A DNA stretch of 64,000 nucleotides. Source: Yuukianura sp. NJ FZ-2021. Taxonomy: Eukaryota. This document shows, piece by piece, positions 8,401-55,102 of the stretch. The stretch's first letter is position 1; each line of letters begins with the position of its first letter. The position numbers and the translations under genes were made by a program. The DNA is taken from NCBI GenBank assembly GCA_046563655.1, contig CM102285.1:10478001-10542000 (forward strand), written 5' to 3'. Under the pieces are notes generated by a model. It saw only the letters and a program-made list of their open reading frames with translations, ran no database searches and was not told where the DNA came from.

Positions 8401-10350
8401 AGCGTTGGAGCCAAGTGATTTAGTACGCACTGTTGTGTCTATTCTGGGACGGGAAGATTTAGGCGTCAAGCGGAAAGTACTCGAAATGCTCAATTACAGA
8501 ATCGCTCACAAGGTAAAAATCCTAAGGAAATATGCTTTTCTTACGCCAATAATGTTTATATGCAAAATTTTTGTATATTAGATTGAATGGTTCGGCAATC
8601 CAGAAATATTCCTGGATTTGATCGACCCGCTATTGGATTTTTGTGAAAAAACACCGACATCTGATGAAGCAATTGCTGTGATTCAAACTGCCTTCATTTC
8701 ACTGAAATTAATTTCAAAACACATTGCATCGGCACACCCGGATGAATTCGTTTCAGTTTTTAACCTCACTTTCAAACAAACAACTCACGAGAACAGGCTC
8801 CTTCGAGCATCAGCATTCGCTTGTCTTGGTGAACTATTTCCTCTCAAGTCTCTGATTCTCCCGAATTTGAATGCTGTTTGTGACGCAATCCTGAAGGCCT
8901 TCAAGGCGGCAGCCAAGATGAACGCTTTTGCTGAACAAAATGGAGGATTGGAAGTAATCCAGAACGGAACTCAAGAGGAGAATGCTGTAAAACACGAAAC
9001 AGAGATGTCCATCAGCGTCGCCAATTTACTATGTATTAGTACGTTGACATGCTTGACAAAACTTTGTGATCAGCTTGGATCATTCCTTGGGGCAAAGTTT
9101 CTTCAAAAGTCACTCGTTGCCATTTTGAAAATGGATGGAATCTTTGGACAAGGAGAGAAGGCGACGAATCGAAAGAAAATATTTGATCAACGAGTCAAAG
9201 CTGTTCTGAAATCCATCGCAGCCAAAATCCCTCTCAGGAATTCATTGCCATCAATTCGGAAGGTGTTCCAGGATGTCATTGCCTTTGACGACTTTCACCA
9301 CACAAATTCAATTGTGCTTCTAATTGACCTTTTGAAAGAAACGCTGGCCAATACACCAAAACCAGATTTTACGACGCTGTTTCCAATGGTCTGCGACTCA
9401 TTTCTCACGGATTTTCTATCCTACCGTCAACGAGTATGTAAATTGGAGCAGGGCGATGAAATGAAGATTTCCAAAGAAGATTTACTCCTGGTTGAAAACA
9501 CTATTTTGGAATGTCTTACAAATGGAATCGTTCTCAAAGTATCGGAAGGAGTCTTTCGCTCGTTTTACCATAAGATGTTTGATTGGACTGGTGAAAACTT
9601 GGACCGACTTATAACGTTCTACCGGTAAGTCTAAAAACATATCCTTACATCACATAATATGCAATTTGATATTTCTAGAATTAACGGTTTTAACTTACTG
9701 TTCCAGATTCAGCGCCAACGCTGCCGAAAAACTAAAGAGTTTGTTCGTAACGTTTTCTGGCTACGTGCTTAGCCATGGAGCAGAAAATTTGAATGTGGAT
9801 TTGGAGTTGACACGATCAATTTTGAAGTACTTTTACCATATCTTCTCAAACGATCGTGAAGGATTCATCACTGTTGACCGTTTCAACAGTTTGGTGAAAC
9901 CATTGGTGGATTTGGTAAGTACATTTCTCAATGGAATGTTTAGGTTCATACCTGTATGTGTCAATTCAATATGTGTTTTCTGCTCTGAATTCTTAGCTTG
10001 AATCCGAGCACACGATCAGTGGCGACATTGACATCAAAGACGTCAGGGACAATTTGATCCAACTGGCCGTCGCGACGAATGACTTGAACCGCTGGCAACA
10101 TCTTGTAGAATTGATTTCGACAAAGTGTCAGCATCCTAACAGAAACGTTCGACTCTACGTTATTTCAACTATTGCTGCTGCTGCAAGTGAGCTTGGGAAA
10201 GACTTCCTTCCTCTTCTTCCTCCAGCAGTTCCATTCTTGGCAGAGTTACTCAACGATGAAGATGAAGAGGTCGAGAAAGAAACAAAGAGAATGCTGCTCA
10301 AACTGGAAGAAATTGTTGGAGAACCATTACAACCCTATTTTGTTATGTAA
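2469..10350 (+). CDS. HEATR1: HEAT repeat-containing protein 1 / UTP10 (SSU processome), multi-exon, full-length copy
   Basis: N-terminus MATSLQRQLAGLAAP...; LSPYFMLPSAIKCIEWLVNRFHI; FTFMGNSILRQDDSYS; C-terminal FLPLLPPAVPFLAELLNDEDEEVE; many exons separated by short GT-AG introns. Confidence 0.95.
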
Positions 10351-10441
10351 AAAATAGACAACTTTTAATTGCTGAGGAATTAGCTAACCAGAGTTTAACT
10401 TTTAGAAAAACATAAAGTTAATAAGAGTAATACTATAACAA

Positions 10442-11405
10442 TCAAGGATTAAGTTGTGAATAAATCAGCTGCCTTTTATATGCATCGACTCCTACAAAGT
10501 CAACGAAAGATTTCATCTTCTTGCAAACACGTTCTGCTGGCCGAGTTCGAAACATGTTTCCAACAATTTGCATTGTTCCAGCTGGCTTCTCCAACTTAAC
10601 TTCCAGTATTGTGTCTTTCTTGGGAATTACTGCAACGGAAAAATACGTTTGTGGAGTTTTTCTGTTTTCAAAACTAACATTAAAAAAAATAAGAAAATAC
10701 TGGTACTCACGCCTGGACTTATTGTCAACTGTTACAATTTGAAACGTTTCCTTCGTTTCCTTCAACACGATGCCTTCCAAGACATGGTTGGCGTTGTGTT
10801 CTGAATTTTTGAGAACTTTGACATGAGCTCCGTGTAAATCCATTTTGTTCAATTTTGCTTGAATTTCATTCGGGTCAGTATCGGATCTAAAGTAAGGAAT
10901 TGTTTCTTTACAAAGTTAAAATCAGCCAATAACTAATTCTGCACACGAGTAGGTTTTCATGTAAGTTTCCAAACAAAGTACTTACCCGCACAATTCAGCG
11001 ACATAACTGTTCCACATAGAGTTGATTTCGACGAAATCTGCATAAGGGAGACGTGGTGGAACTTTCTCATTTTTGATTACTCCAATGGATTTGACAAACT
11101 TCACCTTGCTTTGGTGTTTTCTGAGTGGTGATGGAGTTTCTGCTGGCTTTGACTTCCGCTTCAATTTCGGTTTCTTCGGAGGGCTAGAAGTATCCAATGA
11201 CCGTTGCATCTTCTGATTTTTTCTTCCAAGTACAAACGTCTAAAACCAAAACGTATCCAACGTTTTTAGCATCAAGGACAGCACTGTTAAAATCTGTAAA
11301 CTTAAATAAATATTTGTATTTACCCTTCTTAGAGTCAGCTCAAGGTCCCTTTGAACTTGTGTCGAGTCAGGAAACGCTGCTTTGATGAACCGTTTCGTAA
11401 ATTCA
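10442..11405 (-). pseudogene. POP4: 5'-truncated POP4/RPP29 copy (start codon deleted)
   Basis: Near-identical to 23072-24030 but lacks the 167 bp equivalent to 24031-24197, which contains the ATG. Confidence 0.85.
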
Positions 11406-11486
11406 AAGTCGATACTGTGTACGAGCTGAGTGCTTGGTACTTAAGTTCTAATATTGTTCTGGATGTCTTTAGCTAATATGTAGTAG

Positions 11487-12067
11487 TCAATATAGTATCG
11501 TTTCCGAAATTTGTTATAGAAAAGTAGCCAAGGAAGAAGGCCGTAGCGTCTCATCAGAGACGGATCATACGGGCTGAATCCACATTTCTGCAACCTATCA
11601 AGGTACAACTTGGAAGGAAGAGCTGCCATGAACACTATTTCGGGACTAGCACTAGCACCAGCACCTGTATAACCTATTCGCTTGATCTCATCTGCAATAG
11701 ACTCCTTCAGTGTTTTAGCCTGTCACCAAAAGCAACTGGATTAGAATTTGCGATTTCGAATTATGGAAAACAATGACGAGTAGAACGTTACATGTTCATA
11801 ATGAGCAACTGCTTGGGAAGCCATTTCAAACACTAGATTCTGTATCTTCTCAGTCTCATCCACGCGAATAAAGTTCTCCTGTGACAGAGTATGTTTTAGA
11901 AGAAGATCTTGTGGTACTAAAATTCGGCGTGTCCTTCGAGAATGCGGAAGTGATCTAATGAAATTTGTGATTCCAATTGTCTTTCCAAAATGACTAGCCG
12001 CATGATCCAAGTGTTTTGATTTTAGCCCTTCAGAAATAAGAAATAGAACGTAAACGAGCCCGAATCG
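11487..12067 (-). pseudogene. NDUFAF6: NDUFAF6 3' fragment (last two exons) with a 12-bp in-frame insertion and a 2-bp insertion before the stop
   Basis: Matches 24279-24845; breakpoint lies in an intron; IGYTGAGASASPE vs IGYTGASPE; RKRYYIDYY... reads past the original TGA. Confidence 0.88.
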
Positions 12068-12076
12068 AACGTAAAT

Positions 12077-12181
12077 AAGCCAGCGAGAAGCGGAAGCTTC
12101 TGAAACAAGTACTTGATTTCTCAATTTCGGAGAAAGTTCGAAAGCAGGATACCGTCTTTGTTCTTATTTCGGTTGGAATGA
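12077..12181 (+). pseudogene. NPEPPS: 105-bp templated fragment of an NPEPPS exon
   Basis: AAGCCAGCGAGAAG...GTTGGAATGA equals 30306-30410 with 2 mismatches. Confidence 0.95.
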
Positions 12182-12778
12182 CGTTTCATAACGTTTCGAC
12201 CACAAATACTCTTTCTTCAGTATTAAGTCTAACCATAATTAACAGTAATTAACTTTAAAACAATCAAAACTAATCCCAATTAAAACTGAAATCCAAGTAA
12301 ATACCAAGAATGAATGACTTGTCAAGTCCAACCGACCGCCAAAATTTTCCCTCCATGACTTCCTCTCCCGCTCAAATTCCATCCGAAGCGTCTCCACTCT
12401 TATCCACACGAAATGAGAGTGGCGTCGTAGTTAATTTTGGAACACACGATAGTACTTTGAATTATTTTTTTCATTGGTTCTGTTTTTGGCAAACTCGAGT
12501 TTATTTGAGCAGTAAATTTAGACTATTCGAGAGGAAGCGCCATGGATCAAGTTAAACGATAAATAGTTAAAGCAAGTTAACTCTAATGCACAACCCAATA
12601 CATTAAATTACTTAAAATTAATTAATTAAATTCAAAAAGTTGAAACTACCACGCAGTAAAGACACACTCACAAAAATAAAAGATTTAAAAATTGCCACAT
12701 TTTTTAAAAACAGAATTTGGAAGGCGCATTTAATTTCGAAATCGAAAAAAACTAAAAACGGGTGAAGGAGGTTTTATA

Positions 12779-15700
12779 TTATCTCAAATCGGCGTCTCTC
12801 GCGTGCCGCGTTGCTACCACGCTATCGATTGGTCCTCTATTAATTGTAGAAGCGTTTCTTGATGTAAGTTGACTCGACCCTCGACCTTGACTTGACCCCT
12901 GACCTTGACTCGTCCCTTGACCCCTCCGTTGTGTTGACAAGAAAATTGGAGATGCGGTTCTAGCTTCATAATATTGAAGTTCTTGTTCAATGTCATCAGA
13001 TCCGTCAGCGCTTGTGTATATGACGGGTAGATGGCTACGATCTGTATAACCCAAGCGCTGGCTACTTTGCTGTACGTCCAAATCTGAATCCGAGTCTGAC
13101 TCGTCCGTGGTATCATCAAGGTGGCGATTAGCAACTGCTGCTGGTCGATTTCGCCTTTCATTTCTGTTGTTGCCATCATTGTTTCTGTTGTTGTCCACTG
13201 GGGGGACAAGGTCGTCCCCCTCATGATGCTCCACCCCTTCTTCCGCATACAGAATCTCATGACACAGAGGACAAGTATTCTGGATGTAAAGCCACTTCCG
13301 TAGACAAGCTGCATGGAACAGATGACCACACAGTGTCACTTTAGCAGAATCCATTTCCTCCTGAATTGAAATCACACAAAAATTAATGTAAAACTGTAAA
13401 CTAATTCATTAATTTTATAAATGAATTAATGAATTCGTACATAGCAAATTGCACAGACGTCATCCCGCCTTCTCTCCAATTGTTCAGCAGTAGCGTCACT
13501 CAGCGAGTCAATTTTCCTGGACGCTGATCGTCGCTGAACATAAACTCTCCAGCCTTTCTTCCCTTCCAGCCAAATGTTAAAGTAAGCGTGAATGGCCATA
13601 CCCAGAGCTGTGAAATATGAAAATAAACAAAAAAATTCAAAATTCAAAAATTTAAATCTCGCGCCAGTACATTTGGAATCCAGAAAAGTTTATTTTACCG
13701 CGAATAGCTGAAGCCGACTCAAACAGAAATATCCACACGGCATTCCCCAGGAGGAAGATTCCCGTGACAAATTCGGCACTTTGGGAGAACGCTTTGAGGT
13801 AGAAGATGATGTTGTCGTTGTCCAACTGGTCGCCAAAAGTTGTCACAAAATGGGCAAGAGCGTCTGGCACTAAGGCACGAAGCGACATACGGATTCGATG
13901 CACTACTATTGGAGTGTCCACCCGTTGAGCAAAGTACACAAAGAGTGAAACGAGAAGGGACACGATAATTTTTATCTTAAATTCCAACGCTAACGCTGCA
14001 AAAACAGAACAAAAACGGTTAAAATCTTCTTTTCCCGCAAGTTTTTAAATCATTGACAGTTTTTAGTACCTAGTACTGCCATGGACCATGTTGATATTTC
14101 GGATGAGTAAAGAAGAACAATGCAACACCAGAAAGAACCCACGAGGAACACCACTGATAGCACCGCTGCACGAATTTGTAGTGCCCGGAAGGATCGAAAG
14201 GCATGAAGAAGTGGAGCCACCTACAATATTTAAAGAAAAATGCAAATTGGTAAATCAGTTTACGTTTCACAAACGTTGATCGAGAGTTACCATTTGGTGC
14301 ACGGCGTGTAGCAACGCCGTTGACAACAACACCATGTTTTTCATCAGTCTGTCTAACCGTTTATCTGGCATTAGCGACGTGAGGGAAGTCTGGAGACACA
14401 AAATGAAAAAAAGTATGGTCGTGATTGATCCAAAGCGATTTACGTCGGCTTCAGAATTTGTCCCTCGGTATAATATCCACATGAGAAAGGCACCAATCTG
14501 TACACAAAACGTTAAAATGTCATTTTCAAATGGAAAATTTCAATGTAAAAGTTTGCAGCTAATGTTAGCAAGTTTAACTACTAAATTAGCTTGTTAGTGA
14601 ATGCTGACCTGGTGAGCGAGTCCTGAAACTGTCAGGGTAAGTCCAATGATGCCGAGAAGTGTTTCAGTTCCATTTGTAGTGACTAATCGAAGTGTATTTG
14701 AAAGAGAATGATTGGGAAGATTGACAAACAGGTCAAAAAGTGCTCGTGATAGCCAAAAAAGGCGAAAAACGACGTTGATCCGAAGCCTGCCTGTTTCACG
14801 CTGAATGAGATGACTGATTCCATAATCGTTTCGTACCCGCTTTGTGTCTTCCCAGGAAGCACAAAGAAAGTGATAAAGTTTCGGAACTCCTACCCAGAGT
14901 GATCCCTGAGAAACATACAAGTTTTAAAATTATTGTGAATCAAGTTTTGAATCAAAACTAACGATAAGTTGTATGTCAAAACCAGCTTACCTGAAGGAGA
15001 ATGACGATCGAGAAGAACATGAATTCCGGAATTGCAACAACTCCCGACACAAAGAATAGCGAAAACATCAACGCATCCATGACGTTTAAAATTGCAGCGG
15101 ATATGGCAGAATGTGGGCAGTAAGGGTATCCGCCTGGCCACATTCTGCTGACGAAGTATGTCGCTGCAAGGAACCCTCGAACGGCAATGTTCAGCAACAA
15201 ACGACGAGTCGTCGCCCAGCATAGTGTCGTCACCATCAGAGGTTTGACATACCAGCTTAAGTAAACTGACGAGAAAGCCAGCAGGTACGAATAGAGTTTC
15301 ACTAGATTCTTTGTAGACAGAACAAAGCACACGAGGGCAGCTGCGCATACTGCAAAAATCAAAACGCGAAGTATTTAGTTAATTGCAATGTCAAACTTAA
15401 TTGTTGTTGTAATTCGTAAATGTACTTACCTTGAAGCAGAAAAAGAACTTTGAGAACTTTAAAAATGTCGCCGAGTACAGTCTGGGCAGCATCGAATCCT
15501 TCTATCTCTAGACGCATGTAGTGAACAGGATCTTCTAACGGGGCACTACCAGAGGAATCATCAATTGATGCCGAATTGAGCAGAGACCCGAAGATACCGG
15601 ATATGGAAGTCACGCCTTGGATCAACGACGACACAAATGGTGGCACATATAGTGGAAGTGGTACTTCTTCAATGACAGTTTCTGTCGAATCTTCACTCCA

Positions 15701-15841
15701 AATTATCCCAGAGTCACTGTAACTCATACCCCATTTGTCGCCAAGTCCAAAGTTGTGTCGGAATATCTCATCGATGACGAGCAACGGAGGGACCCGCAGG
15801 AGAGATTCGCAGGCCTGGAAGATCTTGTTGCGGAGGACCAT
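12779..15841 (-). CDS. TRC8: TRC8/RNF139(RNF145)-family multi-pass membrane RING-H2 E3 ubiquitin ligase, copy 1
   Basis: N-terminal LRVPPLLVIDEIF, hydrophobic segments, HAYFNIWL and RING-H2 DDVCAICY/EEMDSAKVTLCGHLFHAACLRKWLYIQNTCPLCH; multi-exon, no disablement seen. Confidence 0.92.
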
Positions 15842-16104
15842 TGTAACGAATTTCGGGAAGACTTTTAGACTAAATGACGTTTGAACTTATGAGTTACGAC
15901 ATTGCAGTACAATTTCGGCCTTCCTTATGCACAACCAGAGTGTCAGTCTGTGAATGTCTTCCTCTTCAGAATAATGCTTCAGGGATTTGTTGTTGTTTCA
16001 CCTAACTTCCTCGTTAAACTGGCGTCAATGGATAATGGAATCCGGTCCCCTTGGAAACAGTTTTCCTTCCCAATCGGTATACCTTAAGAAAACGAAAACG
16101 ATAA

Positions 16105-16213
16105 CCTGGATAAACTGGATAACCTGGTGTAGATTTTGTCAATTTGTTTTTACCTACAACCTACCTACCTACCTACCTACCTACAACCTCTATTACATTT
16201 CTACCACATTGTC
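16105..16213. repeat. 109-bp palindrome spacer containing a (CCTA)n microsatellite and short CTGGATAA repeats
   Basis: CCTGGATAAACTGGATAACCTGG...TACCTACAACCTACCTACCTACCTACCTACCTACAACCTC between the arm ends. Confidence 0.9.
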
Positions 16214-16476
16214 TTATCGTTTTCGTTTTCTTAAGGTATACCGATTGGGAAGGAAAACTGTTTCCAAGGGGACCGGATTCCATTATCCATTGACGCCAGT
16301 TTAACGAGGAAGTTAGGTGAAACAACAACAAATCCCTGAAGCATTATTCTGAAGAGGAAGACATTCACAGACTGACACTCTGGTTGTGCATAAGGAAGGC
16401 CGAAATTGTACTGCAATGTCGTAACTCATAAGTTCAAACGTCATTTAGTCTAAAAGTCTTCCCGAAATTCGTTACA

Positions 16477-19400
16477 ATGGTCCTCCGCAACAAGATCTTC
16501 CAGGCCTGCGAATCTCTCCTGCGGGTCCCTCCGTTGCTCGTCATCGATGAGATATTCCGACACAACTTTGGACTTGGCGACAAATGGGGTATGAGTTACA
16601 GTGACTCTGGGATAATTTGGAGTGAAGATTCGACAGAAACTGTCATTGAAGAAGTACCACTTCCACTATATGTGCCACCATTTGTGTCGTCGTTGATCCA
16701 AGGCGTGACTTCCATATCCGGTATCTTCGGGTCTCTGCTCAATTCGGCATCAATTGATGATTCCTCTGGTAGTGCCCCGTTAGAAGATCCTGTTCACTAC
16801 ATGCGTCTAGAGATAGAAGGATTCGATGCTGCCCAGACTGTACTCGGCGACATTTTTAAAGTTCTCAAAGTTCTTTTTCTGCTTCAAGGTAAGTACATTT
16901 ACGAATTACAACAACAATTAAGTTTGACATTGCAATTAACTAAATACTTCGCGTTTTGATTTTTGCAGTATGCGCAGCTGCCCTCGTGTGCTTTGTTCTG
17001 TCTACAAAGAATCTAGTGAAACTCTATTCGTACCTGCTGGCTTTCTCGTCAGTTTACTTAAGCTGGTATGTCAAACCTCTGATGGTGACGACACTATGCT
17101 GGGCGACGACTCGTCGTTTGTTGCTGAACATTGCCGTTCGAGGGTTCCTTGCAGCGACATACTTCGTCAGCAGAATGTGGCCAGGCGGATACCCTTACTG
17201 CCCACATTCTGCCATATCCGCTGCAATTTTAAACGTCATGGATGCGTTGATGTTTTCGCTATTCTTTGTGTCGGGAGTTGTTGCAATTCCGGAATTCATG
17301 TTCTTCTCGATCGTCATTCTCCTTCAGGTAAGCTGGTTTTGACATACAACTTATCGTTAGTTTTGATTCAAAACTTGATTCACAATAATTTTAAAACTTG
17401 TATGTTTCTCAGGGATCACTCTGGGTAGGAGTTCCGAAACTTTATCACTTTCTTTGTGCTTCCTGGGAAGACACAAAGCGGGTACGAAACGATTATGGAA
17501 TCAGTCATCTCATTCAGCGTGAAACAGGCAGGCTTCGGATCAACGTCGTTTTTCGCCTTTTTTGGCTATCACGAGCACTTTTTGACCTGTTTGTCAATCT
17601 TCCCAATCATTCTCTTTCAAATACACTTCGATTAGTCACTACAAATGGAACTGAAACACTTCTCGGCATCATTGGACTTACCCTGACAGTTTCAGGACTC
17701 GCTCACCAGGTCAGCATTCACTAACAAGCTAATTTAGTAGTTAAACTTGCTAACATTAGCTGCAAACTTTTACATTGAAATTTTCCATTTGAAAATGACA
17801 TTTTAACGTTTTGTGTACAGATTGGTGCCTTTCTCATGTGGATATTATACCGAGGGACAAATTCTGAAGCCGACGTAAATCGCTTTGGATCAATCACGAC
17901 CATACTTTTTTTCATTTTGTGTCTCCAGACTTCCCTCACGTCGCTAATGCCAGATAAACGGTTAGACAGACTGATGAAAAACATGGTGTTGTTGTCAACG
18001 GCGTTGCTACACGCCGTGCACCAAATGGTAACTCTCGATCAACGTTTGTGAAACGTAAACTGATTTACCAATTTGCATTTTTCTTTAAATATTGTAGGTG
18101 GCTCCACTTCTTCATGCCTTTCGATCCTTCCGGGCACTACAAATTCGTGCAGCGGTGCTATCAGTGGTGTTCCTCGTGGGTTCTTTCTGGTGTTGCATTG
18201 TTCTTCTTTACTCATCCGAAATATCAACATGGTCCATGGCAGTACTAGGTACTAAAAACTGTCAATGATTTAAAAACTGGCGGGAAAAGAAGATTTTAAC
18301 CGTTTTTGTTCTGTTTTTGCAGCGTTAGCGTTGGAATTTAAGATAAAAATTATCGTGTCCCTTCTCGTTTCACTCTTTGTGTACTTTGCTCAACGGGTGG
18401 ACACTCCAATAGTAGTGCATCGAATCCGTATGTCGCTTCGTGCCTTAGTGCCAGACGCTCTTGCCCATTTTGTGACAACTTTTGGCGACCAGTTGGACAA
18501 CGACAACATCATCTTCTACCTCAAAGCGTTCTCCCAAAGTGCCGAATTTGTCACGGGAATCTTCCTCCTGGGGAATGCCGTGTGGATATTTCTGTTTGAG
18601 TCGGCTTCAGCTATTCGCGGTAAAATAAACTTTTCTGGATTCCAAATGTACTGGCGCGAGATTTAAATTTTTGAATTTTGAATTTTTTTGTTTATTTTCA
18701 TATTTCACAGCTCTGGGTATGGCCATTCACGCTTACTTTAACATTTGGCTGGAAGGGAAGAAAGGCTGGAGAGTTTATGTTCAGCGACGATCAGCGTCCA
18801 GGAAAATTGACTCGCTGAGTGACGCTACTGCTGAACAATTGGAGAGAAGGCGGGATGACGTCTGTGCAATTTGCTATGTACGAATTCATTAATTCATTTA
18901 TAAAATTAATGAATTAGTTTACAGTTTTACATTAATTTTTGTGTGATTTCAATTCAGGAGGAAATGGATTCTGCTAAAGTGACACTGTGTGGTCATCTGT
19001 TCCATGCAGCTTGTCTACGGAAGTGGCTTTACATCCAGAATACTTGTCCTCTGTGTCATGAGATTCTGTATGCGGAAGAAGGGGTGGAGCATCATGAGGG
19101 GGACGACCTTGTCCCCCCAGTGGACAACAACAGAAACAATGATGGCAACAACAGAAATGAAAGGCGAAATCGACCAGCAGCAGTTGCTAATCGCCACCTT
19201 GATGATACCACGGACGAGTCAGACTCGGATTCAGATTTGGACGTACAGCAAAGTAGCCAGCGCTTGGGTTATACAGATCGTAGCCATCTACCCGTCATAT
19301 ACACAAGCGCTGACGGATCTGATGACATTGAACAAGAACTTCAATATTATGAAGCTAGAACCGCATCTCCAATTTTCTTGTCAACACAACGGAGGGGTCA

Positions 19401-19539
19401 AGGGACGAGTCAAGGTCAGGGGTCAAGTCAAGGTCGAGGGTCGAGTCAACTTACATCAAGAAACGCTTCTACAATTAATAGAGGACCAATCGATAGCGTG
19501 GTAGCAACGCGGCACGCGAGAGACGCCGATTTGAGATAA
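16477..19539 (+). CDS. TRC8: TRC8/RNF139-family RING-H2 E3 ligase, copy 2 (same protein as copy 1)
   Basis: Mirror of 12779-15841; all ORF translations are identical; first introns at 16889-16968 and from 17328. Confidence 0.92.
19396..19449 (+). repeat. 3 x 18-bp coding tandem repeat (GQGTSQ GQGSSQ GRGSSQ) in the TRC8 tail; mirrored in the left arm
   Basis: GGTCAAGGGACGAGTCAA GGTCAGGGGTCAAGTCAA GGTCGAGGGTCGAGTCAA. Confidence 0.85.
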
Positions 19540-20136
19540 TATAAAACCTCCTTCACCCGTTTTTAGTTTTTTTTCGATTTCGAAATTAAATGCGCCTTCC
19601 AAATTCTGTTTTTAAAAAATGTGGCAATTTTTAAATCTTTTATTTTTGTGAGTGTGTCTTTACTGCGTGGTAGTTTCAACTTTTTGAATTTAATTAATTA
19701 ATTTTAAGTAATTTAATGTATTGGGTTGTGCATTAGAGTTAACTTGCTTTAACTATTTATCGTTTAACTTGATCCATGGCGCTTCCTCTCGAATAGTCTA
19801 AATTTACTGCTCAAATAAACTCGAGTTTGCCAAAAACAGAACCAATGAAAAAAATAATTCAAAGTACTATCGTGTGTTCCAAAATTAACTACGACGCCAC
19901 TCTCATTTCGTGTGGATAAGAGTGGAGACGCTTCGGATGGAATTTGAGCGGGAGAGGAAGTCATGGAGGGAAAATTTTGGCGGTCGGTTGGACTTGACAA
20001 GTCATTCATTCTTGGTATTTACTTGGATTTCAGTTTTAATTGGGATTAGTTTTGATTGTTTTAAAGTTAATTACTGTTAATTATGGTTAGACTTAATACT
20101 GAAGAAAGAGTATTTGTGGTCGAAACGTTATAAACG

Positions 20137-20241
20137 TCATTCCAACCGAAATAAGAACAAAGACGGTATCCTGCTTTCGAACTTTCTCCGAAATTGAGAA
20201 ATCAAGTACTTGTTTCAGAAGCTTCCGCTTCTCGCTGGCTT
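20137..20241 (-). pseudogene. NPEPPS: Inverted copy of the 105-bp NPEPPS exon fragment
   Basis: Reverse complement of 12077-12181. Confidence 0.93.
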
Positions 20242-20250
20242 ATTTACGTT

Positions 20251-20831
20251 CGATTCGGGCTCGTTTACGTTCTATTTCTTATTTCTGAAGGGCTAAAATC
20301 AAAACACTTGGATCATGCGGCTAGTCATTTTGGAAAGACAATTGGAATCACAAATTTCATTAGATCACTTCCGCATTCTCGAAGGACACGCCGAATTTTA
20401 GTACCACAAGATCTTCTTCTAAAACATACTCTGTCACAGGAGAACTTTATTCGCGTGGATGAGACTGAGAAGATACAGAATCTAGTGTTTGAAATGGCTT
20501 CCCAAGCAGTTGCTCATTATGAACATGTAACGTTCTACTCGTCATTGTTTTCCATAATTCGAAATCGCAAATTCTAATCCAGTTGCTTTTGGTGACAGGC
20601 TAAAACACTGAAGGAGTCTATTGCAGATGAGATCAAGCGAATAGGTTATACAGGTGCTGGTGCTAGTGCTAGTCCCGAAATAGTGTTCATGGCAGCTCTT
20701 CCTTCCAAGTTGTACCTTGATAGGTTGCAGAAATGTGGATTCAGCCCGTATGATCCGTCTCTGATGAGACGCTACGGCCTTCTTCCTTGGCTACTTTTCT
20801 ATAACAAATTTCGGAAACGATACTATATTGA
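20251..20831 (+). pseudogene. NDUFAF6: Inverted NDUFAF6 3' fragment
   Basis: Mirror of 11487-12067, sharing the 12-bp and 2-bp insertions. Confidence 0.88.
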
Positions 20832-20912
20832 CTACTACATATTAGCTAAAGACATCCAGAACAATATTAGAACTTAAGTACCAAGCACTCAGCTCGTACA
20901 CAGTATCGACTT

Positions 20913-21687
20913 TGAATTTACGAAACGGTTCATCAAAGCAGCGTTTCCTGACTCGACACAAGTTCAAAGGGACCTTGAGCTGATTCTAAGAAGGGTAAAT
21001 ACAAATATTTATTTAAGTTTACAGATTTTAACAGTGCTGTCCTTGATGCTAAAAACGTTGGATACGTTTTGGTTTTAGACGTTTGTACTTGGAAGAAAAA
21101 ATCAGAAGATGCAACGGTCATTGGCTACTTCTAGCCCTCCGAAGAAACCGAAATTGAAGCGGAAGTCAAAGCCAGTAGAAACTCCATCACCACTCAGAAA
21201 ACACCAAAGCAAGGTCAAGTTTGTCAAATCCATTGGAGTAATCAAAAATGAGAAAGTTCCACCACGTCTTCCTTATGCAGATTTTGTCGAAATCAACGCT
21301 ATGTGGAACAGTTATGTCGCTGAATTGTGCGGGTAAGTACTTGGTTCTGAAACTAGCATAAAGACTTGCTCTATTAAATAGTGCAGAATGCTTTTGGCTG
21401 ATTTTAACTTTGTAAAGAATCAATTCCTTACTTTAGATCCGATACTGACCCGAGTGAAATTCAAGCAAAATTGAACAAAATGGATTTACACGGAGCTCAT
21501 GTCAAAGTTCTCAAACATTCAGAACACAACACCAAACACGTCGTGGAAGGCATCGTGTTGAAGGAGACGAAGGAAACGTTTCAAATTGTAACAGTTGACA
21601 ATAAGTCCAGGCGTGAGTGCCAGTATTTTCTTATTTTAATCTAGTTTTGAAAACCGAAAAAAACTTCACAAACGTATTTTTCTGTTG
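20913..21687 (+). pseudogene. POP4: Inverted internal POP4 fragment (no start codon, no last exon)
   Basis: Shares the 167-bp deletion; ends just before the last intron acceptor; more diverged (LKHSEHNTKHVVEG vs LKNSEHNANHVLEG). Confidence 0.87.
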
Positions 21688-21700
21688 TATATATGTTTAC

Positions 21701-22980
21701 CAGCTTGGATCATTCCTTGGAGCAAAGTTTCTTCAGAAGTCACTCGTTGCCATTTTGAAAATGGATGGGATCTTTGGACAAGGAGAGAAGGCGACGAATC
21801 GAAAGAAAATATTTGATCAGCGAGTCAAAGCTGTTCTAAAATCCATTGCAGCTAAAATCCCTCTAAGGAATTCGCTGCCATCAATTCGGAAGGTCTTCCA
21901 GGATGTCATTGCCTTTGATGATTTTCACCACACAAATTCAATTGTGCTTCTAATTGATCTTTTAAAAGAAACGCTGGCCAATACACCAAAACCAGATTTT
22001 ACGACGCTGTTTCCAATGGTCTGCGACTCATTTCTCACGGATTTTCTATCCTACCGTCAACGAGTATGTAAAATGGAGCAGGGCGATGAGATGAAGATTT
22101 CGAAAGAAGATTTATTCTTGGTTGAAAACACTATTTTGGAATGTCTTACAAATGGAATCGTTCTCAAAGTATCGGAAGGAGTTTTTCGATATTTTTATCA
22201 CAAGATGTTTGATTGGACTGGTGAAAACTTAGACCGGCTTATAACATTCTACCGGTAAGTCTAAAAACATATCCTTACATCACATAGTATGCACTTTGAT
22301 ATTTCTAGAATTAACGGTTTTAACTTACCGTTCCAGATTCAGCGCCAACGCTGCCGAAAAACTAAAGAGTTTGTTCGTAACGTTTTCTGGTTACGTGCTT
22401 AGCCATGGAGCAGAAAATTTGAATGTGGATTTGGAGTTGACACGATCAATTTTGAAGTACTTTTACCATATCTTCTCAAACGATCGTGAAGGATTCATCA
22501 CTGTTGACCGTTTCAACAGTTTGGTGAAACCATTGGTGGATTTGGTAAGTACATTTCTCAATGGAATGTTTAGGTTCATACCTGTATGTGTCAATTCAAT
22601 ATGTGTTTTCTGCTCTGAATTCTTAGCTTGAATCCGAGCACACGATCAATGGCGACATTGACATCAAAGACGTCAGGGACAATTTGATCCAACTGGCCGT
22701 CGCGACGAATGACTTGAACCGCTGGCAACATCTTGTAGAATTGATTTCGACAAAGTGTCAGCATCCTAACAGAAACGTTCGACTCTACGTTATTTCAACT
22801 ATTGCTGCTGCTGCAAGTGAGCTTGGGAAAGACTTCCTTCCTCTTCTTCCTCCAGCAGTTCCATTCTTGGCAGAGTTACTCAACGATGAAGATGAAGAGG
22901 TCGAGAAAGAAACAAAGAGAATGCTGCTCAAACTGGAAGAAATTGTTGGAGAACCATTACAACCCTATTTTGTTATGTAA
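21701..22980 (+). pseudogene. HEATR1: 5'-truncated HEATR1 copy (last exons only)
   Basis: Begins mid-exon at QLGSFLGAKF (=9071) after a 13-bp filler and runs to the same stop; frame intact but no start or 5' exons. Confidence 0.85.
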
Positions 22981-23071
22981 AAAATAGACAACTTTTAATT
23001 GCTGAGGAATTAGCTAACCAGAGTTTAACTTTTAGAAAAACATAAAGTTAATAAGAGTAATACTATAACAA

Positions 23072-24143
23072 TCAAGGATTAAGTTGTGAATAAATCAGCT
23101 GCCTTTTATATGCATCGACTCCTACAAAGTCAACGAAAGATTTCATCTTCTTGCAAACACGTTCTGCTGGCCGAGTTCGAAACATGTTTCCAACAATTTG
23201 CATTGTTCCAGCTGGCTTCTCCAACTTAACTTCCAGTATTGTGTCTTTCTTGGGAATTACTGCAACGGAAAAATACGTTTGTGGAGTTTTTCTGTTTTCA
23301 AAACTAACATTAAAAAAAATAAGAAAATACTGGTACTCACGCCTGGACTTATTGTCAACTGTTACAATTTGAAACGTTTCCTTCGTTTCCTTCAACACGA
23401 TGCCTTCCAAGACATGGTTGGCGTTGTGTTCTGAATTTTTGAGAACTTTGACATGTACTCCGTGTAAATCCATTTTGTTCAATTTTGCTTGAATTTCATT
23501 CGGGTCAGTATCGGATCTAAAGTAAGGAATTGTTTCTTTACAAAGTTAAAATCAGCCAATAACGAATTCTGCACACGGTTTTCATGTAAGTTTCCAAACA
23601 AAGTACTTACCCGCACAATTCAGCGACATAACTGTTCCACATAGAGTTGATTTCGACGAAATCTGCATAAGGGAGACGTGGTGGAACTTTCTCATTTTTG
23701 ATTACTCCAATGGATTTGAGAAACTTGACCTTGCTTTGGTGTTTTCTGAGTGGTGATGGAGTTTCTGCTGGCTTTGACTTCCGCTTCAATTTCGGTTTCT
23801 TCGAAGGGCTAGAAGTAGCCAATGACCGTTGCATCTTCTGATTTTTTCTTCCAAGTACAAACGTCTAAAACCAAAACGTATCCAACGTTTTTAGCATCAA
23901 GGACAGCACTGTTAAAATCTGTAAACTTAAATAAATATTTGTATTTACCCTTCTTAGAGTCAGCTCAAGGTCCCGTTGAACCTGTGTCGAGTCAGGAAAC
24001 GCTGCTTTGATGAAGCGTTTCGTAAATTCATAGTCTTCGTCTTGCAAACGGCTCGAATCGACAGATCCATCTGCGTTAATCTTGGAATACTTCGCTTCAT
24101 TCAGTTTCTTTGATGAAACTTCGAGTGTGTCTTCATTGTCCAT
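23072..24143 (-). CDS. POP4: Ribonuclease P/MRP protein subunit p29 (POP4/RPP29), intact multi-exon copy
   Basis: MDNEDTLEV... start; INSMWNSYV; KMDLHG.HVKVLK...EGIVLKETKETFQIVT..N....IPKKDTIL...GNMFRTRPAER, characteristic of Rpp29. Confidence 0.9.
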
Positions 24144-24278
24144 GATGACTTTAAAATTTAAAAAACAAATAAGCATTCAATTCAAATTAGTTTATTCAAG
24201 TCGATACTGTGTACGAGCTGAGTGCTAGGTACTTAAGTTCTAATATTGTTCTGGATGTCTTTAGCTAATATGTAGTAG

Positions 24279-25791
24279 TCAATAGTATCGTTTCCGAAAT
24301 TTGTTATAGAAAAGTAGCCAAGGAAGAAGGCCGTAGCGTCTCATCAGAGACGGATCATACGGGCTGAATCCACATTTCTGCAACCTATCAAGGTACAACT
24401 TGGAAGGAAGAGCTGCCATGAACACTATTTCGGGACTAGCACCGGTGTAACCTATTCGCTTGATCTCATCTGCAATAGATTCCTTCAATGTTTTAGCCTG
24501 TCACCAAAAGCAACTGGATTAGAATTTGCGATTTCGAATTATGGAAAACAATGACGAGTAGAACGTTACATGTTCATAATGAGCAACTGCTTGGGAAGCC
24601 ATTTCAAACACTAGATTCTGTATCTTCTCAGTCTCATCCACGCGAATAAAGTTCTCCTGTGACAAAGTGTGTTTTAGAAGAAGATCTTGTGGTACTAAAA
24701 TTCGGCGTGTCCTTCGAGAATGCGGAAGTGATCTAATGAAATTTGTGATTCCAATTGTCTTTCCAAAATGACTAGCCGCATGATCCAAGTGTTTTGATTT
24801 TAGCCCTTCAGAAACAAGAAATAGAACGTAAACGAGCCCGAATCGTTTGAAAGGATACAATATTTCTCACGAACCTAAGTAATCAAAGATGATGTAGAAA
24901 ATAGGCGAAACGGATTTCTCAGAATATGCTTCAAGATCAGCCAAAGAGTTAAAAGGAGAGTCTGTCATGGTATCCTGTCGAGATTCCACTAGATTCGTAA
25001 ACCATCGCTTCGAAAGTGCGCCTTCACCAATGACTTCCTGCCCAGACAAACACTATTGGTTAAATTCAAGAGGAAGTTTCAAATTCATTCCAATCTATAA
25101 ATCAAAGTGGAATAGTGGAAATTGTCCTTGAAGAAGAACCAAAGTACCCACCGATAACTCTTGAATAACAGGGTGTCTTGGGACGGGTTTGTTGGGATAC
25201 TTTCCAAATAGATGATCTACTGCATCTCGCCAGAAAGCGAGTCGCCCAAGACCAGTCTCTCTGAAAGTTACATTCTCTCGAACCGTTGCTACTTCGACAT
25301 TGAAAGCCCTAATAGCGAAAAATGCTCGTCGTGTCTTGGCAGGCAGTAAAAGCGTTGTAAGGTATCCCTCATAGTCATGTTTCCTAACAACAAAAAAGCA
25401 AACATGGTCTCAATTTTCAACCCAACCTGACTACTGTAAACATGCCCTTAAAGGTATCAGATATTTCATATTTCCTTCTGTCTAGTGTAGGTAACAACAC
25501 TTGTTCATCTCGATGAATTGTAACTGGAACTAGAAGTTCCAGTTCCAGTTAACAAGTGACAGATAAACCAGTTCTAAGTAGTAGTAGTAGTTTTCAAGTT
25601 TAGAAAGTTTACTTGACAATTCCAATGCAGTATTGAAAAGCCGAGTGGCTTCCCTGTTTAGGTGAACTGACCCTGACCCCGTCCTTGGCCAATTGTGTAG
25701 TCGTTCCCGAACAAAAGGCTCGACTTGCTTCAAAATGTATCCGTAGATGATTTTGAGTCCTCTTGATCGTACAAGTAACGGTCTTTAACAT
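24279..25791 (-). CDS. NDUFAF6: NADH dehydrogenase complex I assembly factor 6 (squalene/phytoene synthase fold), intact copy
   Basis: Basic presequence MLKTVTCTIKR..., spliced AFQYCIGIVK/KHDYEGYLTTLLLPAKTRRAFFAIRAFNVEVA...RLAFWRDAVD, DHAASHFGK, YLDRLQKCGFSPYDPSL. Confidence 0.93.
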
Positions 25792-26190
25792 CACCAAAAG
25801 AACTGAAAGTCAAAAAGCAAACGGTTAACAATGGCACGGTTAATACCCATCATACCTTAACAGCACTACTACCACAGCATTTTCCCAGCATGTGTATTAA
25901 TTTAATACATGTATCGATGTATCGAAATTCCACCGTTACCTATTAACTTCTGTCCGGAGATATGCGTGTACTGTATTGTTCGAAAAATGCGATGATGTCG
26001 CTTGCAAAGCCGAAGTTGGTTGACGAAACCGATTAATGTGAGTACCCCGACCTCTCTCAGATCCGAAAAAAGTGATGCATATTTGCAAAAATGAATGAAA
26101 TACCAACAAAATTCTACGGTAAACAGTGTATCAATTTCCCGCGTTGCGATGTACCGTTATTTTCCACACGTGAGAAATGCGTTGGAGTTA

Positions 26191-26447
26191 GGTTTATGGA
26201 CCTTCATTGTACAGTGTAGCCGCTTTTAGTGCTACACTGCGGCAACTTGTCTCTTTTCATAAAAATTAAAGTGTATTCTTCTAGCTCTTGGACGCGGTTG
26301 AATTAATAAAAATTAACGTGTGTTCTAACTTTTGGACATGGTTGAATTTATAAAAATTTGGGCCGTACGCCGCCATATCCATACGCCACGTTTCGGTTGA
26401 AATAAAATGCGGCTAACTTGTGGCGCTACAATGACGGTCCTTAACCC
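26191..26447. mobile_element. PIF/Harbinger (Tourist)-like MITE
   Basis: 21-bp TIRs GGTTTATGGACCTTCATTGTA / reverse complement GGGTTAAGGACCGTCATTGTA (18/21) flanked by TTA on both sides (26188-26190, 26448-26450); internal imperfect direct repeat TTCTA.CT.TTGGAC..GGTTGAATT.ATAAAAATT. Confidence 0.65.
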
Positions 26448-26925
26448 TTACGACAACCGTAGATAGCGGCAGAGTTGGGCAACAAATTTTTTTTCGGTAG
26501 TTTAGTAAACACTAAAAACTTCAAGCACTGGCAAATACAAGGAACCGATAACAGTAATTGGTTGGCACTGGACCTAATATGTTAGCAGTATGTAACCTCA
26601 AGAATTAATTAGGTGGTAGAAAATGATTTAATTCCGGCTTTAGCACCGATTTTCTCTTCTGACAATTTCTCCGTTACGTAACTTTTACCGTTACCGTTAC
26701 CGGTTTGCCATTACACCGCTCGCTGTTGCTTCGTAGACCTGCATAATGCCCAAAGTTGTTACACTAGCGATTTGCATCATCATTTCCATTCTTGTCTCAG
26801 TCGTTCTTTTTATTTTGCAGAAACAGTTCAAGCAGTTCTTGGGGAACGAGGTCAAAAGGTCAGTCAACTTGTTTGTACTCTGTTATTACTGACACTTCCG
26901 TTGATTACCTTTGTATTCCATTCTA

Positions 26926-29900: not shown

Positions 29901-30788
29901 TTGAGGAACGCTTGACTTGGGAACCGAAAAAAGATGAGGGCCATCTTCAAGCAATGTTGAGGTCATTGGTCCTAAATCGCATGATCTCATTTGATAACGA
30001 GGCAACCAGAATCGAAGCTCAGAAGCGATTTGAACTTCATACTGCTGAAAAAGAAAAGGATCGAGTGCCAATCATCCCGGATCTCCGAAGTGCAGTCTAC
30101 AAGGCTGTTCTGTCTACTGCAGATCAGGCCATGCTAGATAAAATCCTGGACGTATGTTGAGCATTTATTAGAGTTTAATTAATACATAGTTAAATGCTAT
30201 ATATTTCTGTTTAGATGTACTGTAACACCGACTTACAAGAGGAGCAGGACCGCATTTCGCGAGCTTTAGGAGCCATTGGAAGCATCTCCCCAGCAAACCC
30301 GGAGGAAGCCAGCGAGAAGCGGAAGCTTCTGAAACAAGTACTTGATTTCTCCATTTCGGAGAAAGTTCGAAAGCAGGATACGGTCTTTGTTCTTATTTCG
30401 GTTGGAATGAGCAAGGAAGGCAGAGAGTTGGCGTGGGAATTCTTCAAAGACAATTGGCAATATTTCAAAGACAACTACCCCGTAAGTATATGCGATTCTT
30501 CAAACATTTCTAAAAATTTTCTTCTCAACTGACGGGGAATGATTATTATTCCAGTGTCAACACATTGCCCGAGTTGTGAAGTACGTCATTGACAGTTTCG
30601 TCACTGAAGAGAAAGCTGTGGACGCTGAGACATTCTTCCGCGACCATCCATTCCCTGGAACTGAACGCACCGTTCAGCAATCCGTGGAGCAAATTCGGTT
30701 GAACGCTGCTTGGATCGAGAGAGACTTTGCCGAAGTTGGAGAGTTTCTGAAACAATCGTATGCTCATATTCAACGCACAGAGTTATAA
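26926..30788 (+). CDS. NPEPPS: Puromycin-sensitive aminopeptidase (M1 family); alternative start at 27217
   Basis: [71 protein letters not shown] (HEXXH-X18-E), [36 protein letters not shown]. Confidence 0.96.
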
Positions 30789-54300: not shown

Positions 54301-55102
54301 CTGGAAACTGCATTATAATTCTGCCACTTTAATTTTTAGATGATTCTAAATTGCAAAAAATGTTTAAAGGATTTTCAGTTCATCGTTGTCCACTTTGTGG
54401 TAGAAGCCCAGAAGAAAAAGTCTCACTCTTTTCCATGCTATAGGATGAAGAAGAATGAGACTTTTTTGGGATTTCTACTAAATAGTGGCGGTCCTTCATT
54501 TTCATTTGTTCATTGTGTTAAGTTATGAAATTATATTGTAGTATGTAAAAAATTGATTCCAAAATGTTGAATCGACAAATGTGGAAATTTTTTAAAATTA
54601 AATAGTGTGTGGGAGACTGGGATCGTAACGGGATATTAAAATAAGCTAATTTTAGTTTGGAACGCTCTGGCTCCAGCCCATACTCATAAAACACTGTTTA
54701 TGTTTACAAAGGTTCGGAGACAGACGACTTTCAGTCTTTCAAGAATCCTTCGCTTAAGCGTAAACATCCAGCGCTCCAAACTGGATCCTCGTGTTCACAA
54801 ACATCCGCAGCAGTTTCATCCTAGCAGACTTTGGAGTAGTCTCAACACACAGTTTCGTGCATGATCCTACATCGACAGTTTTTTAAAGCCCAATAAATTC
54901 AAACCGCCAAGTCTGTCGCTGTACATCCTCATTTTTTTCCGAATCCACCCCCGCGCTAAAGTTTGGCCAATTTCCAAGTTTGGGTGATCCAAAAATAAGA
55001 AATTTTTTAGTTTGAAGTTTGGAAAAAAAATGAAGATTTTTTGGAGATTTTTGAAGATTTGGGTTCAAAAGTGTTAAGTGGTAACCCAGTTTGCTGGTTA
55101 GA

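What the first reader, a model, noticed from the sequence alone, without database searches (positions are those of the whole stretch)
9071..24845. Duplication / inverted-triplication / duplication architecture around the palindrome
Seen: segment B (HEATR1 3' end-POP4-NDUFAF6 3') occurs forward at 9071-12067, partly inverted at 20251-21687, and forward again at 21701-24845. Known: DUP-TRP/INV-DUP structures in human genomic disorders are attributed to replication template switching (FoSTeS/MMBIR). Inference: a replicative event that also captured a distant gene, with the 3-kb direct repeat acting like a giant target-site duplication that leaves HEATR1, POP4 and NDUFAF6 each with one intact copy.
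Basis: partly seen in the sequence, partly recalled or inferred. Interest (0 to 1): 0.8.

Follow-up and report, generated by a model that had tools for sequence, protein, structure and literature searches.

The report
Inverted triplication carrying a relocated gene
A real, inherited DNA rearrangement in a small arthropod holds two mirror-image intact copies of a ubiquitin-ligase gene taken from another large contig, probably another chromosome; its repeated pieces look like two different working versions of the same genes spliced together, so it is a natural relative of rearrangements known from human disease rather than a new kind of element.

Summary
The architecture is real: copies A (9071-12067), inverted I (20251-21687) and C (21701-24845) surround an 11-kb palindrome. 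HEATR1, POP4 and NDUFAF6 each keep one intact copy. The palindrome core is a 105-bp aminopeptidase exon piece, half a MITE and a whole TRC8-family RING ligase gene from contig C7. Both arm copies are intact (823 aa); the C7 copy has a 1-bp frameshift in the assembly. Short-read contigs from two studies hold arm-type sequence and junction 2 (one version 79 bp longer), so misassembly is unlikely.

A is a mosaic, and C's dead HEATR1 piece differs from A at 25.5 silent but 3.5 replacement sites, so it came from a different working haplotype. Best reading: templated-insertion joins and a fold-back built a block on a divergent haplotype, which entered this chromosome by homologous recombination inside the 3-kb repeat.

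Whether the parent gene is dying, locking the cassette in, is open (about 20%). The scan noted other gene-bearing palindromes in this genome, none like this sequence elsewhere. New variant of a known kind; interest 0.5.

The parts
8582..10350 (+). Last three coding exons of the intact HEATR1-like gene (exon ends 9624; 9707-9914; 9997-10350), continuous with upstream exons
   Evidence: BP28CT and HEAT Pfam hits; spliced frame open to the stop
9071..12067 (+). Copy A of segment B; mosaic: diverged from C in 9071-9761, equal to C in 9762-11050, patchy to 11334, equal to I from 11335
   Evidence: 33 differences in 691 bp vs 1 in 1064 bp, Fisher P=6e-13
9762..11050 (.). Tract where A equals C and (from 10633) both differ from I: inferred recombination/conversion tract
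   Evidence: three-way alignment
11401..11410 (.). Scar of a 167-bp deletion (5-bp microhomology) removing the POP4 start and first 38 codons, shared by A and I
12068..12076 (+). Junction 1: 9-nt insert, 8 nt of it a copy of 12047-12054
12077..12181 (+). X: 105-bp piece of an M1-aminopeptidase (ERAP1_C) exon copied from 30306-30410; 2 differences, both silent
12182..12189 (+). 8-nt insert between X and the MITE half; 6 nt recur at 12192
12190..12451 (-). 262-bp terminal part of a TA-flanked MITE with about 33-bp TIRs (full copies 658-901 bp); TIR tip faces the palindrome centre and still abuts C7-like flank; the assembled C7 site has no MITE
12779..15841 (-). Left-arm TRC8_N + RING ligase gene, 8 exons, 823 aa, intact
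   Evidence: coding sequence identical to the right arm; ends
16105..16214 (.). 110-bp palindrome spacer: 16178-16214 is C7 upstream sequence, 16105-16177 is filler with short local repeats
16477..19539 (+). Right-arm TRC8_N + RING ligase gene, 8 exons, 823 aa, intact; 299 bp of C7-derived upstream DNA
   Evidence: 7 of 7 predicted introns seen as GT..AG skips in run X5
19868..20129 (+). Mirror copy of the MITE half
20137..20241 (-). Mirror copy of X
20251..21687 (-). Copy I: inverted NDUFAF6 3' end and POP4 without start or last exon; its outer part differs from both A and C
21688..21700 (+). Junction 2: 13-nt insert; in run X2 the join enters HEATR1 at 8995, and the window form is that join minus 79 bp at a 4-bp microhomology
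   Evidence: (loose end at 21704; contig with 76 extra letters)
21701..24845 (+). Copy C: promoterless HEATR1 3' piece (divergent type in 21701-22391), the only complete POP4, and the 3' end of the intact NDUFAF6
23072..24143 (-). Intact POP4 (RNase P/MRP p29), 4 exons
   Evidence: spliced POP4 contigs with the first exon in X5
24279..25409 (-). NDUFAF6-like exons with SQS_PSY hits, continuous across the end of C (5' end not mapped)
30306..30410 (+). Source of X inside the M1 aminopeptidase gene

Best explanation
A real germline inverted triplication with an ectopic, twice-present insert. SHOWN: the layout; junction inserts copied from nearby DNA; two intact head-to-head TRC8-family ligase genes from C7; a central block (about 11100 in A to 22391 in C) whose local-gene copies differ from the flanking copies mostly at silent sites. 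INFERRED: (1) on a working haplotype deeply diverged from the flanking one, error-prone end joining or template switching (polymerase-theta/MMBIR type) joined NDUFAF6-3' to X, to a break inside a MITE lying just downstream of the C7 ligase gene, and folded back just upstream of that gene; a second turn made junction 2. (2) The block entered or was eroded into the present chromosome by homologous recombination inside segment B, either as an inverted-dimer circle with one crossover and a 1.3-kb conversion tract (9762-11050) or by two later crossovers; sequence cannot tell these apart. (3) Junction 2 has since been trimmed further. Functionally it is a 12.63-kb cassette that adds two ligase genes and leaves the three local genes single and intact; recombination between A and C could remove it cleanly.
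For: A-vs-C HEATR1 exon: 25.5 silent / 3.5 replacement differences, P=5e-8 against a dead copy drifting since duplication; pooled over the three dead fragments other than POP4, 33 of 39 silent. Junction-defining pieces look young: X differs at 2 of 105 sites where 12.9 are expected if the event were as old as pS 0.2 (P=2e-4); the MITE half has 2 private substitutions and one 4-bp insert against 5 other copies. Yet the attached ligase gene differs from C7 by pS 0.21-0.23 in exons 6-7 and 12.5% in the 3' flank, so the captured allele was not the assembled C7 allele. One contiguous swap explains the three-way pattern. Junction 2 is spanned in X1 (the same 199.2 depth remainder at 21619 and 21736) and present in longer form in X2, a second study. 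Brewer et al. 2024 (PMC10766186, passages) describe the dimeric circle recombining with the homologue and later erosion of junctions.
Against: POP4 in I (8 silent, 11 replacement vs C) fits a copy dead for its whole branch (P=0.35), and at sites matched by an outgroup I is derived 3 times and C once; only the intron-based test leans the other way (P=0.025). The 11095-11334 stretch is patchy (2 A-only, 2 I-only, 2 C-only sites), not one clean crossover. The two samples laid are nearly identical to the assembly (0 differences in 804 arm letters in X2), so no direct sign of deep allelic diversity in the living population was obtained. No circle, origin or polymerase was observed. No contig piece shown spans the whole structure.
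Confidence: 0.6

Rival explanations
1. Old event, late erosion: an ancient inverted triplication duplicated whole HEATR1 and POP4 genes, all copies worked for a long time (pS up to 0.2), and junction 2 and the 167-bp deletion truncated them only recently, while gene conversion (arm-arm, A-C, arm-C7) produced the mosaics.
For: Junction 2 has demonstrably been trimmed once (79 bp). The ligase arms vs C7 are themselves a mosaic (pS 0.02-0.04 in exons 2-4, 0.21-0.23 in exons 6-7). POP4-I fits a partly dead history. If dead parts are about 0.8% old per branch, 17.9 arm-arm differences are expected in 11335-12451 and at most 1 is seen (P=3e-7), which points to conversion or to a later fold-back.
Against: X and the MITE half, never functional here, carry few changes; the NDUFAF6 3' fragment, dead from the start, shows 6 silent and 2 replacement differences (P=0.036). 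A 105-bp piece flanked by foreign DNA is a poor conversion target (inference).
Confidence: 0.25
2. One reading: one FoSTeS/MMBIR pass on one haplotype, all differences arising afterwards by drift.
For: All junction types carry local templated inserts and the order of pieces can be drawn as four switches.
Against: Predicts I = A and neutral decay of dead pieces; instead I differs from A and C over 10633-11050 and 43 replacement changes are expected in C's HEATR1 piece against 3.5 seen.
Confidence: 0.07
3. Assembly artefact: two haplotypes stitched in tandem, or a fold-back chimera.
For: The copies look like different haplotypes; no piece shown spans the whole stretch and reads seem cut at 16105-16191; three of the four runs are one sample that may be the assembly's source.
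Against: Arm-type contigs in X1 have depth 607-756 against 284 for the single-copy aminopeptidase allele; junction 2 is spanned in X1 and found in a variant form in a second study; arm-type X and ligase letters occur in X2. Junction inserts and a 110-bp complex spacer are not what haplotig stitching gives (inference).
Confidence: 0.05
4. A Pack-TIR or foldback transposon that captured the gene and inserted here.
For: Each arm holds a MITE end with a TIR.
Against: TIR tips point inward and remain joined to C7-like flank; the outer boundaries are gene fragments, not TIRs; no short target duplication; no other copy of the cargo but C7.
Confidence: 0.03

Closest known systems
Human DUP-TRP/INV-DUP rearrangements (Grochowski et al. 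2024, PMC11293582, passages read)
   Same: Direct duplication around an inverted third copy; junction 2 with microhomology or insertion; inter-homologue cases exist.
   Different: No pre-existing inverted low-copy repeat pair at junction 1; the distal duplication is replaced by foreign DNA present twice; kilobase scale; inherited and shared by two samples rather than a patient event.
ODIRA inverted triplications (Brewer et al. 2024, PMC10766186, passages read)
   Same: Two turn-around junctions, one with a short spacer and one eroded to 1.57 kb; mixed haplotypes as expected if a dimeric circle recombines with the homologue; secondary trimming.
   Different: The centre is filler DNA, not a retained short inverted repeat; the unit includes DNA from another contig; no origin or circle shown.
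SD-MMEJ / polymerase-theta templated insertions (Yu and McVey 2010, PMC2943611, abstract and outline only)
   Same: Inserts at the joins repeat sequence lying within about 25 nt.
   Different: Enzyme not tested; the 13-nt insert of junction 2 had no clear nearby template (best 8-nt matches).
Gene-bearing palindromes of primate Y/X, Folsomia candida and Adineta vaga (PMC5490193, PMC7953838, passages read)
   Same: Intact genes in near-identical inverted arms (99.94% over 4770 bp).
   Different: Here the cargo is a relocated single-copy housekeeping-type gene with its source traceable; arm-to-arm conversion is not demonstrated; arms are only 5.5 kb.
Pack-TIRs of animals (Tan et al. 2021, PMC8277862, passages read)
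   Same: A break inside a TIR element joined to non-TE DNA by template switching.
   Different: The cargo lies outside the TIR tips' outer ends; the unit is not bounded by TIRs or a target duplication.

Membership tests
DUP-TRP/INV-DUP | Duplicated segment followed by a triplicated segment whose middle copy is inverted | tested here: met
   9071-10632 twice, 10633-12067 three times, middle inverted
DUP-TRP/INV-DUP | Second, distal duplication of the adjoining local sequence | tested here: not met
   After 12067 the arms hold X, a MITE half and C7 DNA; 24846-30305 is single
DUP-TRP/INV-DUP | Junction 1 inside a pair of pre-existing inverted low-copy repeats | tested here: not met
   Only inverted repeats of 14 nt or less in the 3 source regions scanned; centre is filler
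DUP-TRP/INV-DUP | Junction 2 with microhomology, small or templated insertion | tested here: met
   13-nt insert and 3-bp shared letters; 4-bp microhomology deletion relative to X2
DUP-TRP/INV-DUP | Both junctions in cis on single molecules | not testable with these tools
   Only short-read contigs were served
ODIRA triplication | Turn-around junction retains a short native inverted repeat | tested here: inconclusive
   21 short inverted pairs in 401 bp of C7, none matching both edges of the spacer; later remodelling could have erased one
ODIRA triplication | Replication origin inside the unit; extrachromosomal dimeric circle | not testable with these tools
   No origin map or circle data
ODIRA triplication | Mixed-homologue sequence pattern after integration into the homologue | tested here: met
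   Central block of one type, flanks of another, with one shared tract; two later crossovers give the same pattern
Conversion-maintained palindrome (Y type) | Arm identity above 99.9% | tested here: met
   3 differences in 4770 bp; polishing could have evened the arms
Conversion-maintained palindrome (Y type) | Arms more alike than the age of the palindrome allows | tested here: inconclusive
   True if dead parts date the fold-back, not if their changes predate it
Pack-TIR / foldback transposon | Cargo enclosed by outward-facing TIRs with a target-site duplication | tested here: not met
   TIR tips face the centre; no short duplication at the outer ends

The most novel reading that the evidence does not exclude
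The animal's only TRC8-family ligase gene is caught moving house. The parent on C7 is frameshifted in the assembly and its specific contigs have about a quarter (X1) or a fortieth (X3) of single-copy depth, while both palindrome copies are intact. If the parent is being lost, an intrinsically unstable, cleanly excisable 12.6-kb cassette, taken from a foreign haplotype, is now locked in by its cargo: an 'addictive' inverted triplication, and a ready-made gene-transposition incompatibility between lineages with and without it.
Probability: 0.2. Interest if true: 0.75.

Novelty: new variant of a known kind. Interest (0 to 1): 0.5.

Why it matters
Inverted triplications are known mostly from patients, tumours and selected microbes. 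Here one is inherited in a wild-type animal genome, at a size that PCR and long reads can cover, with two haplotypes preserved side by side. That makes the homologue-integration branch of the ODIRA/MMBIR debate testable in a natural case. If the C7 parent is decaying, it also shows how a fragile palindrome can become permanent: by carrying the last working copy of a gene, which bears on why some small arthropod genomes hold many gene-bearing palindromes.

Tried and rejected
Target-site-duplication reading: rejected, the repeats are two haplotype types. Pack-TIR reading: rejected on TIR orientation. In-frame POP4-HEATR1 fusion through the new AG at junction 2: out of frame, stops after 37 foreign residues. 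Polarising arm vs C7 replacements with one homologue (P0002): of 27 sites 1 matched the arm, 2 matched C7, 16 neither, 8 unaligned; uninformative. The two protein searches returned one unnamed hit each, so the taxon was not established here; 'springtail-like' comes only from other AI notes. No RNA holder was listed; X5 is treated as RNA only because of its GT..AG skips. Arm-type letters were not listed at 16224-16252 in X2, and I-type letters not at 21270-21454 in X1-X3; contigs drop variants, so neither blank is used. The frameshift site at 17933 was not among the 12 indel rows shown (21 hidden). The frame of the last two HEATR1 exons was mis-set and corrected; only the 9071-9624 figures from the earlier calls are used. 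The whole-gene POP4 ratios included misaligned deleted codons and were replaced. Scan look-ups by sequence and by words found nothing. Five paper searches (listings only) showed no title describing this combination; the library lacks most subscription papers and no supplements were read.
Full report
1. Observation. The window lies on contig C3 of a 98.7-Mb, 22-contig eukaryote assembly. Self-BLAST confirms copy A (9071-12067), inverted copy I (20251-21687), copy C (21701-24845) and a palindrome 10633-21687. A search of the genome with C found 5 matches, all in this window. C has 167 bp that A and I lack, including the POP4 start. HEATR1 is intact through A, POP4 only in C, NDUFAF6 through C. 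Gene names are inferred from Pfam domains.

2. The insert. Each arm reads: NDUFAF6 3' end, 9-nt insert, 105 bp of the aminopeptidase exon at 30306-30410, 8-nt insert, 262 bp of a MITE, then 3.65 kb matching C7:1495117-1498711 at 93%. The MITE family has about 33-bp TIRs and TA at both ends in the 5 copies examined; 7 other copies at 95-97% were listed, a lower bound. Its TIR tip faces the centre and still joins C7-like flank, and the assembled C7 site has no MITE. The C7-derived part is a complete TRC8_N + RING gene: 8 exons, 823 aa, identical coding sequence in both arms. The assembled C7 copy lacks 1 bp in exon 4 (frameshift) and 12 bp in frame in exon 8. TRC8_N matched only these three loci (8 matches among 15 candidates). 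Inserts at junction 1 and the X/MITE join repeat letters within about 25 nt, and the spacer is filler with local repeats; the 13-nt insert of junction 2 had no clear template.

3. The copies are mosaics. A and C differ at 33 of 691 sites in 9071-9761 but 1 of 1064 in 9762-10825. Over 10633-11050 I is the odd copy; 11095-11334 is patchy (2 sites private to each copy); from 11335 A equals I and C is odd. In the HEATR1 exon, A vs C gives 25.5 silent and 3.5 replacement differences (pS 0.206, pN 0.008), although C's piece has no promoter or start. A copy dead since duplication would give about 37% silent differences; 25 of 29 has P=5e-8. NDUFAF6 (6 silent, 2 replacement) and X (2, 0) lean the same way. 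POP4 in I does not: 8 silent, 11 replacement, P=0.35, with 3 derived states at outgroup-matched sites against 1 in C, of 11 sites. Arms vs C7: pS 0.094, pN 0.015 overall, from pS 0.02 in exons 2-3 to 0.21-0.23 in exons 6-7.

4. Age versus divergence. Pieces that were never functional here are barely changed: X at 2 of 105 sites (12.9 expected at pS 0.2), the MITE half at 2 private substitutions plus a 4-bp insert. So the joins look young while the alleles they join are deeply diverged. I infer that the block from about 11100 in A to 22391 in C comes from one working haplotype and the flanks from another. A fold-back copying its own nascent strand would make I equal A, which it is not, so homologous recombination inside B must have followed. 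One crossover of an inverted-dimer circle with conversion over 9762-11050, or two later crossovers, give the same result.

5. Reads. Six runs were listed, all short-read contigs, from 3 studies; I laid 4 on 16105-23262 (tables are cut: 40 of 189 letter rows, 15 of 18 joints, 24 of 74 loose ends, 32 of 385 pieces shown). X1, X3 and X5 are one sample, possibly the assembly's source; X2 is another study. The tool warns that contig depth is not copy number, so what follows is indicative. In X1, arm-type contigs with 0 differences have depth 607-756; the native aminopeptidase allele has 284; one contig of depth 199 covers both sides of junction 2 (inferred from equal remainders at 21619 and 21736). 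Per-copy depths range 199-390. X2 holds arm-type contigs (0 differences in 804 letters) and a junction 2 that enters HEATR1 at 8995; the window form equals that minus 79 bp at a 4-bp microhomology. The structure is thus shared and has been trimmed since it formed.

6. Expression and the parent. X5 shows 7 of 7 predicted introns as GT..AG skips, and its main contig keeps the full 359 letters of exons 4-5, so the intact frame is transcribed; it has 0 of 6 C7 differences in exons 2-3 and 2 where C7 has 18 in exon 6. Against over-reading: that contig is C7-like at its 5' end, and a partly C7-like 3' contig has depth 95, so C7-type RNA is plentiful, which is not what a decaying nonsense transcript would suggest; the frameshift may be an assembly error in a short C run. 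C7-specific DNA contigs (20 of 20 and 34 of 34 expected differences) have 0.25 of single-copy depth in X1 and 0.02 in X3; a three-point fit of arm depth on shared words gives slope 76, intercept 592 (a fourth contig, depth 756, was left out as an outlier). In X2 the C7 type is at about half the arm depth, as expected for three copies. Whether most C7 chromosomes in sample S1 are empty, carry an arm-like allele, or C7 is a sex chromosome is unresolved; in the second case arm-type RNA need not come from the palindrome.

7. Mechanism, shown and inferred. Shown: layout, sources, junction inserts, mosaic pattern, silent-site excess, junction polymorphism. Inferred: polymerase-theta or MMBIR-type joins, a break inside the MITE, fold-back upstream of the ligase gene, origin on a divergent haplotype, and entry by homologous recombination (0.6). 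The main rival is an old triplication of whole genes, eroded late and homogenised by conversion (0.25). Recombination between A and C left of the 167-bp deletion would restore a perfect empty allele and drop 12.63 kb (inference from coordinates).

8. Comparison. It works like DUP-TRP/INV-DUP (PMC11293582, passages) but fails two defining features: the distal local duplication and junction 1 in inverted low-copy repeats. ODIRA (PMC10766186, passages) foresees integration into the homologue and junction erosion; origin and circle are untested. Gene-bearing palindromes are reported in Folsomia and Adineta (PMC5490193, PMC7953838, passages), and other AI notes list many in this genome (unchecked). 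It is not a Pack-TIR (PMC8277862, passages). Five searches, listings only, showed no paper on this combination; that is weak evidence. The taxon was not determined here.

9. Verdict. Real, and richer than first read, but built from known processes: new variant of a known kind, interest 0.5. The bold reading, a last working gene copy locking in an excisable cassette, has probability about 0.2 and would merit 0.75.

Noticed in passing
window 21516-23262 in run X2: Contig depth 144-290 against 7-31 elsewhere in the stretch, centred on the HEATR1 3' exons. Target enrichment or whole-genome amplification seems likelier than a real 25-fold amplicon, but this was not resolved.
   Followed up: partly
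window 21688-21703: Junction 2 supplies a new AG behind the last POP4 intron of copy I; a spliced product would end out of frame. X5 has C-type HEATR1 letters at depth 16.5.
   Followed up: partly
window 23456-23457: The only complete POP4 has Val where A, I and the homologue P0001 have Ala in the conserved motif at codon 170.
   Followed up: partly
window 11490-11491 and 11655-11666: A and I share a 2-bp insertion that extends the NDUFAF6 fragment by 16 codons and a 12-bp in-frame insertion.
   Followed up: partly
L004-L008, 1497-2397 and equivalents: A MITE family of 658-901 bp with about 33-bp TIRs and TA ends; superfamily and autonomous partner not sought.
   Followed up: partly
L015-L016 (C7:1504719-1519998): Tandem array of long single-exon reading frames (up to 728 aa, 72-91% alike at DNA level) beside the parent gene; not identified.
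   Followed up: no
L013 2539-3050 (C7:1482539-1483050): A 512-bp near-perfect palindrome (96%) about 12 kb from the parent gene.
   Followed up: no
L003, intron 6 of the C7 gene: Acceptor is AAG where the arms have CAG.
   Followed up: no
window 19898, 19991, 20015-20018: Contigs of all or most runs differ from the assembly inside the MITE half; may reflect merging with other family copies or polishing.
   Followed up: no
window 54390-54488: Weak 99-bp inverted repeat (75%); a SET-domain exon lies at 56164-56922.
   Followed up: no
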